Shown: in pieces, positions 35,707-37,838 of the stretch
Layout of the letters: each line of letters starts with the position of its first letter
Numbering within the stretch: the first letter of the stretch is position 1
The notes under the pieces: model-generated
Told to the model about the DNA's origin: nothing
The model's input: only the letters and a program-made list of their open reading frames with translations
The model's database searches: none
Program-made: the position numbers and the translations under genes
Assembly (NCBI GenBank): GCA_034666985.1
Contig: JAXDKS010000063.1
Span: 105,226-169,225, forward strand
Length of the DNA stretch: 64,000 bases
Direction: 5' to 3'
Source: Acidobacteriota bacterium
GTDB lineage: Bacteria; Acidobacteriota; Thermoanaerobaculia; Multivoradales; UBA5704

Positions 35707-35723
35707 AGCAGGATCGGTGCCAA
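35707..35723 (-). promoter_or_regulatory. Putative sigma-54 (-24/-12) promoter on the minus strand: TGGCACC-GATC-CTGCT
   Basis: Perfect TGGCAC -24 element and a TGC -12 core at the correct 12-nt GG-to-GC spacing. About 110 nt upstream of the 35595 gene, and immediately downstream of the sigma-54 activator gene. Confidence 0.5.
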
Positions 35724-35826
35724 GGGTTCTGCAGCCCGTGGCGGCGCTCCGGACGCGCAAAAAGGTTTTCTTTTCCGTATCCTACCGTTCACACCCGGTG
35801 TGGACGATCGGATACAGGCCCCGGGG

Positions 35827-37761
35827 TCAGCCGTCGTCGCGGAGGTCTTCGCGCAGGTCCAGTTTGTTGATCAGGCGGTGCAGGTAGGTGGGCTGGAGGC
35901 CGAGGAGGGCGGCGGCGCGGGTCATGTTGCCGGCCGCCTCGGCCACCGCGGCGCGGATCAGCCGCCTCTTGGTCTCGTGCAGGGTCTCGTGATAGCGGCC
36001 GAGCGCGATCCCGGGCACGGCCGCCGCCTCCAGCACGGTCTCGGGGAGGTCCTCGGGACGGATCAATCCCCCTTCGCCCAGCACGATCGCCCGCTCGACC
36101 GCGTTGGCCAGCTCGCGGACGTTGCCCGGCCAGTCGTAGCCCTGGAGGCAAGCGCGCGCCTCAGGGGTGAAGCCGGCCACGGGGCGCCCGAGGCGCTGGC
36201 TGGTGAGGGCCGCGAAATGGCTCGCCAGCAGGGGGATGTCCTCCCGCCGCTCGCGCAGGGAGGGGAGGTGCAGGGGGATGACGCTCAGGCGGTAGTAGAG
36301 GTCCTCGCGGAAGGTCCCCTCGCGGATCGCCTTCTCCAGGTCCCGGTTGGTGGCGGCCACCACCCGCACGTCCACGCGCAGGGGCCGGGTGCCGCCCACG
36401 CGCTCGAATTCCCGCTCCTGGAGGAAGCGCAGGAGCTTGGCCTGGAGGTGGAGAGGGAGCTCGCCGATCTCGTCGAGGAACAGGGTGCCGCCGTCGGCGG
36501 CCTCGGCCTTGCCGGTCTTGCGCGCCACGGCGCCGGTGAAGGCCCCCTTCTCGTGGCCGAACAGCTCGCTCTCGAGCAGGCTCTCGGAGAGGGTGGCGCA
36601 GTTGATCGCCACGAACGGCCCGGCCGCCCGCGGGCTCTCCCGGTGGAGCGCGCGCGCCGCCACCTCCTTGCCGGTGCCGCTCTCGCCGCGCAGCATCACG
36701 GTCGTATCGCTCGCCGCCGCCCGCCGCAGCAGGCGGTAGACCTCGCGCATGCGGGGGCTCTCGCCCACCATCCCGCCGGCGCCGCCGGAGAGCCCCTCGG
36801 CCAGGCGGCGGTTCTCCTGGTCCAGCCATTCCACCTGCCGCACGCCGGCCAGCGCGCCCGCGGCCACGCCGCCAAGGGCGGTGAGGATCTCCAGGTGCCC
36901 GGCGTCGAGGGGCGGGCCCGGCGGCTCCCGCTCCAGGACGTCGACGTAGAGCAGGCCGAACGCGCGGCCGAGATGGGTGACGGGAGCGGCGAGCAGCGAG
37001 CGGACGCGGGCCGCCCGCAGGCTCTCGGCGCCGGCGAGGTCCCCGGCCGTCAGCACCTCGCCGGCCAGCAGGGCGGTGCCGGCGAGGGCCTGGCGGACCA
37101 CGGTGCGCGAGACCGGGAAGGGGGCGGTGCCGCCCCGGCGGTCCAGGGCGAAGGCGTCCGCGATCTCCGGCGCGCCGCGGTCGGCGAGCAGCAGGGCGGC
37201 GCGGTCGCCGGGGATGGCGGCGAGGACCGGCTCGAGCAGGGCGCGGGCGAGCTCGGGCGTCGAGCGGGCCGACTGCAGGGCGGTAGCGATGCGGAGCAGG
37301 GTCTGGAGGTCGCGGGCGATGTGGCCGCTCGCATCGGCGCCGGCCCGGGCCGCGAGCTCGCCGCCGGGCCGGGCCCACAGGGCGTCCCGCGGCGCCAGGT
37401 GGATCGTGGTGCCGGCGGTGAAGGCGCCGTCGTCCTCGAGCACGCGGGGCTCGGCGCGGGGGGCGTCGTCCGGCCGGAGCTGGAAGAGGAAGAGGGTGTC
37501 CCCCACGGCGATGAGGTCGCCGTCCTCCAGCAGGCGCTCGTGGACCGGCCGGCCATTGACGAAGGTGCCCTGGCGGCTGCCGAGGTCGCGCAGGAGGAAC
37601 CCGCCCTCCGCCGGCTCGATGGCGCAGTGATGCCGGGAGGCGGCGGCGTCGTTCACCTGGAGGCCGTTGCCGGCATGGCGGCCGATGCCGAGCCCCTCCG
37701 GACCGAGGGGGACGAGACGGCCGGCCAGCGGGCCGCTCAGCACGGTGAGCATCGGTTGCAT
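35827..37761 (-). CDS. Sigma-54-dependent transcriptional activator (bEBP) with FHA and GAF input domains, AAA+ sigma-54 interaction domain, Fis-type HTH
   Basis: FHA block ([25 protein letters not shown]...[13 protein letters not shown]), GAF-like region, and AAA+ domain with ESGTGKE Walker A and GAFTGA motif. C-terminal [26 protein letters not shown]. Confidence 0.9.
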
Positions 37762-37822
37762 CGGTTTCCTTCCGAAGACGGGTCAGAAGACGGGGTCAGT
37801 GTATCCGAATCCTCCGGCTCCC

Positions 37823-37838
37823 TGGCATCGAATATGCT
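37823..37838 (+). promoter_or_regulatory. Putative sigma-54 (-24/-12) promoter: TGGCAT-CGAAT-ATGCT, divergent from the bEBP gene
   Basis: GG and GC dinucleotides at the canonical 12-nt spacing. Lies 80 nt upstream of the ATG at 37918. Confidence 0.55.

What the first reader, a model, noticed from the sequence alone, without database searches (positions are those of the whole stretch)
35707..37838. FHA-GAF sigma-54 activator flanked on both sides by -24/-12 promoters
The bEBP gene (35827-37761, minus strand) has a divergent candidate sigma-54 promoter TGGCAT-N5-ATGCT at 37823-37838, which would drive the tandem-domain hypothetical gene at 37918. A second candidate, TGGCACC-GATC-CTGCT, lies on the minus strand at 35707-35723 just past the bEBP 3' end and would drive the small Ser/Thr-rich gene (35595) and possibly the lipase. 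Both have exact GG-to-GC spacing. The FHA input domain implies control by Ser/Thr phosphorylation. Two Hanks kinases are encoded nearby (38643-41291 and 23696-27157).
Basis: partly seen in the sequence, partly recalled or inferred. Interest (0 to 1): 0.6.

Follow-up and report, generated by a model that had tools for sequence, protein, structure and literature searches.

The report
Kinase-linked sigma-54 activator with two promoters
A transcription activator gene in an uncultured soil Acidobacterium is flanked by two sigma-54 promoters and shared operator-like sites. This layout is conserved in related genomes together with a neighbouring receptor kinase, so it defines a small signalling cassette that has not been studied and whose output genes evolve unusually fast.

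Summary
No experiments exist.

- **Promoters.** TGGCAT-N5-ATGCT (37823-37838, +) and TGGCAC-N5-CTGCT (35707-35722, -) are the only two matches to TGGCAY-N6-TGCW in 64 kb (0.25 expected). They flank the only bEBP in the window, which has FHA, GAF, an AAA+ domain with GAFTGA, and HTH_8.
- **Conservation.** In related metagenomic loci the bEBP, the 242-aa gene and the convergent TPR Hanks kinase (38643-41291) form a conserved cassette. P1 is kept in 16 of 17 loci. P2 is kept in 10 of the 12 loci whose sequence reaches past the bEBP stop.
- **New: operator-like sites.** An 18-bp element occurs twice directly after the bEBP stop (35777-35815, about -100 from P2). It occurs once upstream of the bEBP start (37800-37817). 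A second clade changes it at both places together with the HTH recognition helix.
- **Partner kinase.** The adjacent kinase is the likely partner. The second kinase (23696-27157) has its own FHA-GAF protein.
- **Outputs.** They diverge. The 242-aa tandem beta-sandwich protein is hypervariable, and the P2 cargo is swapped between loci and is often a lipase or esterase.

This is a new member of the known FHA-bEBP kind.

The parts
35827..37761 (-). bEBP gene (644 aa): FHA, GAF, AAA+ sigma-54 interaction domain (GAFTGA, Walker A GESGTGKE, Walker B-like LFLDEIGE), AAA lid and Fis-type HTH
   Evidence: Pfam; sequence; GAFTGA is unique in the window; no NCBIfam equivalog reaches its cut-off
37823..37838 (+). 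P1, sigma-54 promoter of the 242-aa gene (TGGCATCGAATATGCT). The predicted transcription start is near 37849.
   Evidence: Conserved as TGGCATC-N4-yTGCTC in all 8 clade-1 loci. Present in 16 of 17 loci overall, once with a CG at the -24 position.
37800..37817 (+). Site 1: TGTATCCGAATCCTCCGG, an operator-like element 39 nt upstream of the bEBP start codon and 5 nt upstream of the P1 16-mer. It is probably a bEBP binding site used for autoregulation and/or P1 activation.
   Evidence: Invariant block CAGT-TA-CCGAA-C in alignment A2. GTATCCGA occurs only here and in the palindrome. In clade 2 it is a full 18-bp palindrome TCTAACCAATCGGTTAGA that stays about 30 nt from the bEBP start but lies 126-193 nt from P1.
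37918..38646 (+). 242-aa target gene: two tandem cupredoxin-like or Ig-like beta-sandwich domains, no signal peptide, and a conserved C-terminal DPxIDNLGQP tail. It is hypervariable.
   Evidence: No Pfam, NCBIfam or PADLOC hit. Model pLDDT 81. Generic beta-sandwich matches. Weak plastocyanin hits, E about 0.1. Divergence profile and dN/dS. Family of 221 clusters at 50% identity.
38643..41291 (-). Receptor Hanks Ser/Thr kinase (882 aa): kinase domain, one predicted TM segment and a large TPR region. It is convergent with the 242-aa gene and overlaps it by 4 nt. It is the likely cognate kinase.
   Evidence: Pfam. The motifs GQGGMGEV, VALK, HRDLKAEN, DFG and SPE were read. Synteny in every locus.
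35707..35722 (-). P2, sigma-54 promoter (TGGCACCGATCCTGCT). The predicted transcription start is near 35696.
   Evidence: Conserved as TGGCAyyGAnyCTGCT downstream of the bEBP stop in L082, L085, L089, L090, L091, L092, L093, L098 and L100. Decayed in L087.
35777..35815 (.). Candidate enhancer (UAS) for P2. Two inverted copies of an 18-bp element, GTATCC-N4-GTyCACA, sit 22 bp apart centre to centre. The pair is centred about 100 nt upstream of the P2 start and begins 11 nt after the bEBP stop codon.
   Evidence: These are the only exact matches in the window. In clade 2 the pair is replaced by two separate perfect palindromes, TCTAACCGATCGGATAGA and TCTCACCGATCGGTGAGA.
35759..35776 (-). Conserved A/T-rich tract GGAAAAGAAAACCTTTTT between the UAS and P2. 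It may be an intrinsic bend or an IHF-type site.
   Evidence: Conserved in alignment A1. The function is inferred only.
35670..35683 (.). Conserved perfect palindrome TTCGATCGATCGAA in the predicted P2 leader (about +13 to +26). Its role is unknown; it could be an operator or an RNA element.
35233..35595 (-). First gene after P2: a 120-aa Ser/Thr-rich orphan, all-beta by prediction, with about 50% GC. The ATG at 35595 follows the strong SD AAAGGAG. JGI calls the upstream ATG at 35628 (131 aa).
   Evidence: Only 3 near-identical relatives exist. No link to aegerolysin was found.
35140..35167 (-). GC-rich hairpin GCGCGGCCTCGCCGGAGGCCGCGCCGGC between the small gene and the lipase. It may be a terminator or attenuator lacking a U-tract.
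   Evidence: 2 copies in the window, 0 expected
33958..35052 (-). Class-3 lipase gene (364 aa), a possible second gene of the P2 unit
   Evidence: Pfam Lipase_3. The same small gene plus lipase pair occurs in L093. Lipases or esterases follow P2 in L085, L089, L090 and L091.
33920..33947 (-). Second copy of the hairpin, directly after the lipase stop codon

Best explanation
This is a self-contained signalling cassette of soil Acidobacteriota; named relatives are annotated Thermoanaerobaculia.

**Signal input (inferred).** A membrane Hanks kinase with a large TPR region (38643-41291) senses a signal that is still unknown. It creates phosphothreonine, either on itself or on the activator. The FHA domain of the bEBP (35827-37761) reads that mark. 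This relieves repression by the FHA-GAF N-terminus, so the AAA+ domain can assemble.

**DNA binding (inferred from conservation and co-variation).** The activator binds through its Fis-type HTH to 18-bp elements. Two of them lie just past its own stop codon (35777-35815). One lies just upstream of its own start codon (37800-37817).

**Transcription (inferred from conserved promoters).** The assembled activator remodels sigma-54 RNA polymerase already sitting at two promoters that point away from the activator gene. P1 (37823-37838) drives the 242-aa tandem beta-sandwich protein. P2 (35707-35722) drives the small orphan protein and possibly the class-3 lipase. The site at the bEBP 5' end probably also autoregulates the activator gene.

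**Shown by the sequence data:** the domain architecture, the promoter motifs and their conservation, the conserved synteny, and the shared operator elements that co-vary with the HTH. Kinase-to-FHA signalling, binding of this bEBP to those sites, sigma-54 dependence and the biological output are all inferred.
For: **Promoters**
- They are the only two matches to the sigma-54 consensus in 64 kb, and they flank the only bEBP.
- P1 is retained in 16 of 17 loci that carry a homologue of the 242-aa gene, although the leader around it diverges.
- P1 tracks the target gene rather than the bEBP. Its distance to the bEBP start is about 60 nt in clade 1 and 150-220 nt in clade 2.
- P2 is retained in 10 of the 12 loci whose sequence reaches past the bEBP stop, in front of unrelated cargo genes.

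**Activator competence**
- PF00158 scores E 1.6e-73. GAFTGA, Walker A/B and HTH_8 are present.
- The FHA Arg, Ser-x-x-His and Asn positions (GR, SRHH, NG) were read.

**Operator sites**
- The half-site GTATCC-N4-GTyCACA matches exactly only at 35777-35815.
- GTATCCGA occurs only there and at 37801.
- TSTAWCCRA has 3 hits against 0.58 expected.
- The pair is centred about -100 from P2, with the two elements 22 bp apart. From background knowledge, this is the classical tandem-dimer enhancer geometry of NtrC-type activators.
- In clade 2 (bEBP about 67% identical) the element changes to TCTAACC/TCTCACC...GGTTAGA at both the 3' and the 5' locations. The HTH changes as well: [23 protein letters not shown] becomes GNVTKAGALLGLHPNYLHRLISN.

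**Kinase partnership**
- The arrangement bEBP, 242-aa gene, convergent kinase recurs in every locus long enough to show it.
- The kinase has intact catalytic motifs and a conserved juxtamembrane Thr.
- The bEBP linker carries an invariant AGTT(I/V)xLAP, that is a Thr with Leu at +3.
- The other kinase in the window is paired with its own FHA-GAF protein.
Against: - No transcription, binding or phosphorylation data exist for any member.
- rpoN is not in the window, and its presence in the genome could not be checked.
- Site 1 lies only about 40 nt upstream of the predicted P1 start in this window. That is too close for a classical looping enhancer, and its promoter-proximal half is degenerate.
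- The 3' palindrome always abuts the bEBP stop codon. It persists in L087, where P2 has decayed. In L090 a copy sits between convergent genes. It could therefore also, or instead, be a transcript 3'-end hairpin.
- The loci are not very divergent in the regulators (bEBP 82-96% identical within clade 1), so part of the non-coding conservation is simple relatedness.
- The GAF domain may respond to a small ligand independently of the kinase.
- L101 has CG instead of GG at -24, and L103 lacks a recognisable P1.
Confidence: 0.7

Rival explanations
1. The palindrome at 35777-35815 is the 3'-end hairpin or terminator of the bEBP transcript and not an enhancer. P2 would then be activated from elsewhere or from solution.
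For: It starts 11 nt after the stop codon in every locus. It is kept in L087 where P2 has decayed. It lies between convergent genes in L090. As RNA it folds into a long interrupted stem.
Against: - It has no U-tract and is not called by the terminator scan.
- Its fold energy is not unusual (z = -1.29).
- The non-pairing spacer bases (CGATCG) are conserved.
- The same half-site occurs at the bEBP 5' end, where no hairpin exists.
- In clade 2 it is two separate loop-less perfect 18-bp palindromes, 21-22 bp apart. That form is typical of dimer binding sites and not of terminators.
- It co-varies with the HTH.
- A dual role is not excluded.
Confidence: 0.2
2. The GAF domain, not the kinase, is the real signal input, through a small ligand as in NifA, NorR or FhlA. 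The FHA domain would serve only for oligomerisation or for an unrelated partner, and the adjacent kinase would regulate something else, for example the 242-aa protein.
For: GAF-bEBPs regulated by ligands are well established (background knowledge). The GAF domain is recognisable. The most persistent gene pair is kinase plus 242-aa gene: it is kept in L102 and L103, where the gene upstream of the 242-aa gene is not the bEBP.
Against: The GAF score is marginal (29.7 bits against a cut-off of 28.6). The FHA domain scores well and keeps its phosphothreonine-binding residues. FHA-GAF modules sit next to Hanks kinases twice in this window. The bEBP and the kinase are both under strong purifying selection and are syntenic.
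Confidence: 0.25
3. Site 1 (37800-37817) is not an activator site for P1. It is part of the bEBP gene's own promoter or operator (for example a -10-like TACACT on the minus strand). P1 would then be activated from the distal palindrome 2 kb away or without DNA binding.
For: Across clades its position is fixed relative to the bEBP start (30-39 nt) and not relative to P1 (5 to about 190 nt). In this window it sits at about -40 from the P1 start. In L087-L091 the minus strand reads ATGCCA-N17-TACACT.
Against: In clade 2 it is a full palindrome of the same family as the P2 enhancer sites, and it lies at a classical enhancer distance from P1. The sigma-70 scan finds no promoter here. In the window and in L082, L083 and L085 the spacing to the -35-like hexamer is 19 nt.
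Confidence: 0.35
4. The two motifs are chance matches or relics and are not functional sigma-54 promoters.
For: There is no experimental evidence. The genome is GC-rich, so GG-N10-GC is ubiquitous.
Against: The full consensus has 2 matches against 0.25 expected. Both matches are intergenic, correctly oriented and adjacent to the only bEBP. They are conserved across loci in which the surrounding leaders and the target proteins have diverged strongly.
Confidence: 0.03

Closest known systems
FHA-domain enhancer-binding proteins of Myxococcus xanthus (Jelsbak, Givskov & Kaiser 2005, PNAS 102:3010; cited in PMC6971385 and PMC12288465; the paper itself was not readable here)
   Same: An N-terminal FHA domain is fused to a sigma-54 AAA+ activator domain and a C-terminal HTH. 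The organism is rich in Hanks kinases. Input from Ser/Thr phosphorylation is presumed.
   Different: This protein is from a different phylum (Acidobacteriota). It has an extra GAF domain between FHA and AAA+. A dedicated TPR receptor kinase is conserved next to the activator. The two target promoters and the operator sites can be read directly from conservation. Orthology to any Nla protein was not tested.
NtrC/glnAp2-type enhancers (tandem dimer sites about 100-140 bp upstream of a -24/-12 promoter)
   Same: Two palindromic sites lie about two helical turns apart and are centred about 100 nt upstream of a TGGCAC-N5-yTGCT promoter. The DNA-binding domain is a Fis-type HTH.
   Different: The input is FHA-GAF, not a receiver domain phosphorylated by a histidine kinase. 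The enhancer sits immediately after the activator's own stop codon. A third site overlaps the activator's 5' region.
GAF-regulated bEBPs (NifA, NorR, FhlA)
   Same: A GAF domain lies N-terminal to the AAA+ module, where it typically represses ATPase activity until a signal arrives. NifA and NorR are among the best NCBIfam hits but score far below their cut-offs.
   Different: No equivalog cut-off is reached. An FHA domain precedes the GAF. No ligand is predicted.
PknH-EmbR of Mycobacterium tuberculosis (background knowledge)
   Same: A membrane Hanks kinase is encoded next to a transcription factor whose FHA domain mediates the kinase-regulator interaction.
   Different: EmbR is a SARP/OmpR-type activator of sigma-70 promoters, its FHA domain is C-terminal, and sigma-54 is not involved.
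PpkA-Fha threonine phosphorylation pathway of type VI secretion (PMC5995506, PMC12607579)
   Same: A Hanks kinase and an FHA reader are encoded together as a signalling pair.
   Different: That pathway acts post-translationally on assembly of the secretion machine. Here the FHA domain is fused to a transcription activator.

Membership tests
sigma-54 (-24/-12) promoter | GG and GC dinucleotides separated by exactly 10 nt within TGGCAC-N5-TTGCW | tested here: met
   P1 is TGGCATCGAATATGCT and P2 is TGGCACCGATCCTGCT. There are 2 matches against 0.25 expected.
sigma-54 (-24/-12) promoter | Located upstream of a gene and oriented toward it, at a plausible leader distance | tested here: met
   82 nt separate the -12 GC of P1 from the ATG at 37918. 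About 113 nt separate that of P2 from the ATG at 35595. Both ATGs follow strong SD sequences.
sigma-54 (-24/-12) promoter | Conservation of the -24 and -12 elements in orthologous regions while the flanks diverge | tested here: met
   Alignments A1 and A2 and further loci
sigma-54 (-24/-12) promoter | Genome encodes RpoN; the transcription start lies about 12 nt downstream of the GC; transcription depends on rpoN | not testable with these tools
   No RpoN box is found in the 64-kb window.
bacterial enhancer-binding protein (AAA+ sigma-54 activator) | Sigma54_activat AAA+ domain with Walker A/B and a GAFTGA loop | tested here: met
   PF00158 E 1.6e-73. [16 protein letters not shown] and EKGAFTGA are present.
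bacterial enhancer-binding protein (AAA+ sigma-54 activator) | C-terminal DNA-binding HTH and cognate upstream activator sequences | tested here: inconclusive
   HTH_8 scores 23.0 bits against a cut-off of 22. Candidate 18-bp sites are conserved and co-vary with the HTH. Binding was not tested.
FHA phosphothreonine-reader domain | FHA fold with the conserved Gly-Arg, Ser-x-x-His and Asn-Gly positions | tested here: met
   PF00498 E 3.8e-16. IGRH, SRHH and FVNG were read and are invariant in the alignment.
FHA phosphothreonine-reader domain | Binds a phosphothreonine peptide generated by a cognate kinase | not testable with these tools
   There is only synteny with the kinase and conserved candidate Thr residues.
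Hanks-type Ser/Thr kinase (38643-41291) | Pkinase domain with a Gly-rich loop, VAIK Lys, HRD, DFG and APE motifs | tested here: met
   PF00069 E 1.4e-47. GQGGMGEV, VALK, HRDLKAEN, DFG and SPE are present.
Myxococcus FHA-EBP group | Orthology to a named M. xanthus FHA-EBP | not tested
   The best matches in 185,579 reference genomes are Acidobacteriota proteins at 50% identity or less, and they lack the cassette.
Intrinsic terminator (reading of the 35777-35815 palindrome) | GC-rich hairpin immediately followed by a U-tract | tested here: not met
   A hairpin forms, but it is followed by GGAAAAGAAAACC and is not detected by the terminator scan.
Aegerolysin (reading of the 120-aa P2 gene) | Match to PF06355 or to the aegerolysin-like P2 gene of L091 | tested here: not met
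   No Pfam hit even at E <= 1. hhalign probability is 0.5%. The L091 protein itself does match (29.9 bits against a cut-off of 22).
Cupredoxin / plastocyanin (reading of the 242-aa protein) | Beta-sandwich with His/Cys/His/Met copper ligands | tested here: not met
   The model has two beta-sandwiches. Laccase and plastocyanin similarity is weak. The family has only one invariant Cys and no invariant His.

The most novel reading that the evidence does not exclude
The cassette is a conserved sensing chassis for rapidly changing payloads. The chassis is the receptor Hanks kinase, the FHA-GAF sigma-54 activator, two promoters and the shared 18-bp operators. One fixed slot holds a hypervariable tandem beta-sandwich protein: dN/dS is 0.6-0.9, and DNA identity drops locally to about 67% between loci that are 95-98% identical in the regulators. 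A second slot holds swappable membrane- or lipid-active cargo: class-3 lipase, carboxylesterases, an LCAT-like lipase, an aegerolysin, and secreted proteins of unknown function. That pattern would fit an inducible antagonism, predation or envelope-attack response of soil Acidobacteriota. It would also give the first genetically defined cognate pair of a Ser/Thr kinase and an FHA-bEBP with known target promoters.
Probability: 0.3. Interest if true: 0.65.

Novelty: new member of a known kind. Interest (0 to 1): 0.45.

Why it matters
FHA-containing sigma-54 activators were catalogued in Myxococcus two decades ago. The literature I could search shows no case where the kinase, the activator, its DNA sites and its target promoters are all defined together. 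This cassette offers that in compact form: one kinase, one activator, three operator-like sites and two promoters, all within 6 kb and conserved across at least two clades. It is therefore a tractable model for how eukaryote-like Ser/Thr phosphorylation is wired to sigma-54 transcription.

It also assigns a regulatory context to two uncharacterised protein families in Acidobacteriota, a dominant but poorly studied soil phylum. The conserved regulators combined with hypervariable outputs suggest a role in biotic interactions. For genome annotation, the conserved motif set gives a concrete way to find the regulon elsewhere: TGGCAyCrAnyCTGCTCT plus the 18-bp CCGATCG-centred sites.

Tried and rejected
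- **Reference-genome scan with the bEBP.** All 80 loci were distant paralogues (50% identity or less). They lacked the 242-aa gene, the small gene and the lipase, and they lacked the operator element. L001 has its own divergent sigma-54 promoter in front of a MacB-type permease, so it belongs to a different regulon.
- **Foldseek against the PDB.** It gave only generic Ig, cupredoxin or 6-Cys tandem beta-sandwich matches with low TM-scores, so no function can be assigned to the 242-aa protein.
- **Small 120-aa protein.** It has only 3 near-identical relatives. The model is low-confidence (pLDDT 57), so no fold search was made. It shows no similarity to the aegerolysin or the 142-aa protein that occupy the same slot elsewhere.
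- **Other databases.** Rfam found nothing in 33000-42500. PADLOC and NCBIfam gave nothing for the target proteins, and the kinase and bEBP hits are generic domain similarity.
- **Promoter and terminator scan.** The sigma-70 scan found no promoter, and the terminator scan found only one unrelated site.
- **Full 17-nt half-site PWM.** It does not score near P1. Only the shorter GTATCCGA part is shared in clade 1.
- **GG-N10-GC alone.** It is uninformative in this GC-rich DNA.
- **GATC/CGATCG motifs as methylation sites.** I considered whether their recurrence reflects methylation. GATC is common in the window (485 copies), so I did not pursue it.
- **Literature searches.** They found no description of this cassette. 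Jelsbak 2005 is not held.
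Full report
**1. The observation**

The sequence shows both motifs.
- P1 is TGGCATCGAATATGCT at 37823-37838 on the + strand.
- P2 is the reverse complement of 35707-35722, TGGCACCGATCCTGCT.

Both have GG and GC separated by exactly 10 nt. The consensus TGGCAY-N6-TGCW has only these two matches in the 64-kb window on both strands, against 0.25 expected from shuffles. The looser core GGCAY-N6-TGC is if anything depleted: 3 found against 5.9 expected, and two of the three are these sites. 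GG-N10-GC by itself is meaningless in this 70% GC DNA.

The gene between the two motifs (35827-37761, minus strand) encodes a 644-aa protein. It has FHA, GAF, Sigma54_activat, AAA_lid_14 and HTH_8 domains, all above the Pfam cut-offs. It also has an intact GAFTGA loop, Walker A and Walker B. It is the only GAFTGA protein in the window.

**2. Source and relatives**

The window is part of a 395-kb JGI soil-metagenome contig. The same 120-aa protein is annotated in an NCBI Acidobacteriota MAG. Close homologues of the 242-aa protein are annotated Thermoanaerobaculia.

A scan of one genome per species with the bEBP returned only distant FHA-GAF bEBPs (50% identity or less) without the neighbouring genes. 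I therefore used homologues of the 242-aa protein as anchors and fetched their contigs.

**3. A conserved cassette**

Every locus long enough to show it has the same arrangement:
- an FHA-(GAF)-sigma-54 activator on one strand;
- the 242-aa gene divergent from it;
- a TPR-containing Hanks kinase convergent with the 242-aa gene, often overlapping it by 4 nt.

The kinase has all the catalytic motifs and one predicted transmembrane segment followed by about 500 residues with TPRs. It therefore looks like a receptor kinase.

Within the closer clade the regulators are much better conserved than the 242-aa protein:

| Protein | Amino-acid identity within clade 1 |
|---|---|
| bEBP | 82-96% |
| Kinase | 75-90% |
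| 242-aa protein | 41-88% |

A second clade (L098-L100) has a bEBP about 67% identical, a kinase about 61% identical and a 242-aa protein about 34% identical, with the same gene order.

However, it lies directly downstream of a separate 344-aa FHA-GAF protein and a DUF6689 gene. The adjacent kinase is therefore the better candidate partner for the bEBP.

**4. Both promoters are conserved**

*P1.* It is present as TGGCATC-N4-yTGCTC in all eight clade-1 loci. The -24 and -12 positions are invariant while the downstream leader is largely unalignable between subgroups. In the more distant loci:
- L098 and L099 have GGGCAT-N5-GTGCT.
- L100 has AGGCAT-N5-GTGCT.
- L102 has GGGCAC-N5-TTGCT.
- L101 has a CG at -24.
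- L103 has no recognisable promoter.

P1 keeps a leader-like distance to the 242-aa start codon, whereas its distance to the bEBP start varies from about 60 to about 220 nt. It therefore belongs to the 242-aa gene.

*P2.* It recurs as TGGCAyyGAnyCTGCT downstream of the bEBP stop in the window, L082, L085, L089, L090, L091, L092, L093, L098 and L100. It has decayed in L087 and is absent in L099. P1 and P2 resemble each other over 22 nt (pair I19).

**5. Operator-like elements (new)**

Directly after the bEBP stop codon every clade-1 locus has GTATCC-N4-GTCCACA-N5/6-TGTGGAC-N4-GGATAC. In the window this is 35777-35815. It amounts to two inverted copies of an approximately 18-bp element whose centres are 22 bp apart.
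- Its 3' edge is 54 nt from the P2 TGGCAC, which puts its centre about 100 nt upstream of the predicted start.
- A conserved A/T-rich tract (GGAAAAGAAAACCTTTTT) lies between the palindrome and P2.
- In the window the half-site pattern matches exactly only here.
- Its first 8 nt, GTATCCGA, occur only here and at 37801-37808. The second position lies inside an invariant block just upstream of P1.

In clade 2 the 3' element is two separate perfect palindromes, TCTAACCGATCGGATAGA and TCTCACCGATCGGTGAGA, 21-22 bp apart and again followed by P2. The element near the bEBP 5' end is TCTAACCAATCGGTTAGA, with the same arms. So the element changes in parallel at both places.

The HTH of the intervening bEBP changes in its helix-turn-helix residues as well: [23 protein letters not shown] becomes GNVTKAGALLGLHPNYLHRLISN. 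This is the main argument that the bEBP itself binds these sites. It remains an inference.

The 5' element keeps its distance to the bEBP start (30-39 nt) but not to P1. Start to start, it lies 21-24 nt upstream of the P1 16-mer in the clade-1 loci (23 nt in this window) and 126-193 nt upstream in L098-L100. I read it as an autoregulatory site that can also serve as the P1 enhancer where the spacing allows. In this window it sits at about -40, so how P1 is activated here is open. The options are close-range contact, looping from the 3' palindrome 2 kb away, or activation from solution.

**6. Is the palindrome merely a terminator?**

For a terminator or 3'-end hairpin:
- It abuts the stop codon in every locus.
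- It persists in L087 without P2.
- It lies between convergent genes in L090.
- As RNA it forms an interrupted stem.

Against:
- It has no U-tract and gets no terminator call.
- Its folding energy is unremarkable (z = -1.29).
- Its non-pairing bases are conserved.
- The half-site recurs at the bEBP 5' end without a hairpin.
- In clade 2 it has the form of loop-less palindromes.

I give the exclusive terminator reading 0.2. A dual role is possible.

**7. The outputs**

*The 242-aa protein.*
- It has no family assignment in Pfam, NCBIfam or PADLOC.
- An AlphaFold model (pLDDT 81) shows two beta-sandwich domains. The structural matches are only generic Ig, cupredoxin or 6-Cys hits, and sequence similarity to plastocyanin is weak (E about 0.1).
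- The family has no conserved copper ligands. It has no N-terminal signal peptide, and its tail DPxIDNLGQP is invariant.
- It evolves fast. Between the window and L083, DNA identity is 95-98% across the bEBP and 90-98% across most of the kinase, but 67-78% across 37991-38740.
- Its dN/dS is 0.63-0.87, against 0.20-0.51 for the bEBP and 0.27-0.36 for the kinase. Its dS is also elevated. This suggests allele exchange plus relaxed or diversifying selection.
- The family comprises 221 clusters at 50% identity, nearly all of them stand-alone proteins of 230-260 aa.

*The P2 slot.* Its content is variable.

| Locus | Cargo after P2 |
|---|---|
| Window, L093 | 120-aa orphan plus Lipase_3 |
| L082 | Big_7 membrane protein |
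| L085 | secreted 498-aa protein plus carboxylesterase |
| L100 | 504-aa protein, apparently homologous to the L085 498-aa protein (similarity seen by eye only) |
| L089 | 142-aa protein plus carboxylesterase |
| L090 | LCAT-like lipase |
| L091 | aegerolysin plus two carboxylesterases |
| L098 | 102-aa protein plus cupin |

Lipolytic enzymes recur. In this window, however, a GC-rich hairpin lies between the small gene and the lipase, and it is repeated after the lipase. Co-transcription of the lipase from P2 is therefore uncertain.

**8. Mechanism**

*Shown by the sequence data:* the domain architecture, the promoters, the synteny, and the shared elements that co-vary with the HTH.

*Inferred:*
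- The receptor kinase phosphorylates a Thr. Candidates are the conserved juxtamembrane Thr in GPTWAGP and the invariant AGTT(I/V)xLAP in the bEBP linker, which has Leu at +3.
- The FHA domain reads that mark.
- Repression by FHA-GAF is relieved and the AAA+ ring forms on the tandem sites.
- Sigma-54 holoenzyme at P2 and P1 is opened.

The role of the GAF domain (ligand sensing or structural) is unknown.

**9. Comparison with known systems, and novelty**

- FHA-bEBPs as a class are known from M. xanthus (Jelsbak et al. 2005, cited in PMC6971385 and PMC12288465).
- Tandem enhancer sites are classical for NtrC.
- GAF-bEBPs are classical (NifA, NorR, FhlA).
- Signalling pairs of a Hanks kinase and an FHA reader are known (PknH-EmbR; PpkA-Fha, PMC5995506).

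No NCBIfam equivalog cut-off is reached, and my literature searches found no description of this cassette. I therefore rate it a new member of a known kind. It stands out for how completely the circuit can be read from sequence, and for the contrast between conserved regulators and fast-evolving outputs.

**Scores**
- Interest: 0.45.
- Confidence in the overall model: 0.7.
  - Both sites are genuine sigma-54 promoters: about 0.85.
  - The bEBP binds the 18-bp sites: about 0.65.
  - The kinase signals to the FHA domain: about 0.5.

Noticed in passing
window 37991-38740 (the 242-aa gene and the 3' end of the kinase gene): There is a sharply localised divergence. Against L083, DNA identity is 67-78% here but 95-98% in the bEBP and 90-98% in most of the kinase. 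dN/dS of the 242-aa gene is 0.63-0.87, against 0.2-0.5 for its neighbours, and its dS is also elevated. It behaves as a hypervariable or recombining gene inside a conserved regulatory cassette.
   Followed up: partly
window 23696-29058 (minus strand): A second signalling unit: DUF6689 (28219-29058), a stand-alone FHA-GAF protein of 344 aa (27154-28188; 29% identical to the bEBP N-terminus) and a 1153-aa Hanks kinase with TPRs (23696-27157), with 4-nt overlaps. FHA-GAF therefore appears to be a reusable input module next to kinases. L098 also carries FHA-GAF fused to an adenylate/guanylate cyclase domain.
   Followed up: partly
window 35140-35167 and 33920-33947 (minus strand): The same 28-nt GC-rich hairpin, GCGCGGCCTCnCCGGAGGCCGCGCCGGC, followed by TTTCGCGTyGCGCGGGCT, occurs after the small gene and again after the lipase gene. 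There are 2 copies in the window and 0 expected. It could be a terminator without a U-tract or a small repeat element.
   Followed up: partly
window 35670-35683: A perfect palindrome, TTCGATCGATCGAA, lies in the predicted P2 leader. It is conserved in divergent loci. A CGATCG core also sits at the centre of the 18-bp operator elements and in several P1 leaders (GCCCGATCGAAA in L087-L091). Its role is unknown.
   Followed up: no
window 35233-35700 and 41400-43500: GC content falls to about 50-59% (the window mean is 70%) over the small P2 gene and its leader, and over the region upstream of the kinase, which contains only short unannotated ORFs. This may mark recently acquired or fast-evolving DNA.
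   Followed up: no
L090 4873-5900: An acetyltransferase gene is inserted between the bEBP and P2. The last ~100 nt of the bEBP gene plus the palindrome are duplicated, so one palindrome copy sits after the real stop codon and one in front of P2.
   Followed up: partly
L087 5700-5860: P2 has decayed to TGGCACCCGACAACCT and the downstream gene is an unrelated 5'-3' exonuclease, yet the palindrome after the bEBP stop is intact. This is relevant to whether the palindrome has a role independent of P2.
   Followed up: partly
window 34452-34460 (minus strand): A third match to the operator half-site pattern (TCTATCCGA) lies inside the lipase coding sequence. It is probably chance.
   Followed up: no
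P0009 and P0014 (homologues of the 242-aa protein; L085): Two homologues carry a C-terminal extension with a hydrophobic stretch followed by basic residues (GKGGCLSSLFALGVFWLRTRRRSGR). It resembles a tail anchor or a sorting signal, although there is no N-terminal signal peptide.
   Followed up: no
L001 5701 (minus strand) and 3009-5450: The closest reference-genome FHA-GAF bEBP (Bryobacterales MAG, 50% identity) has its own divergent sigma-54 promoter, TGGCATCCAAGATGCA, in front of a MacB/FtsX-type permease. The wider FHA-GAF bEBP family therefore controls different regulons.
   Followed up: partly
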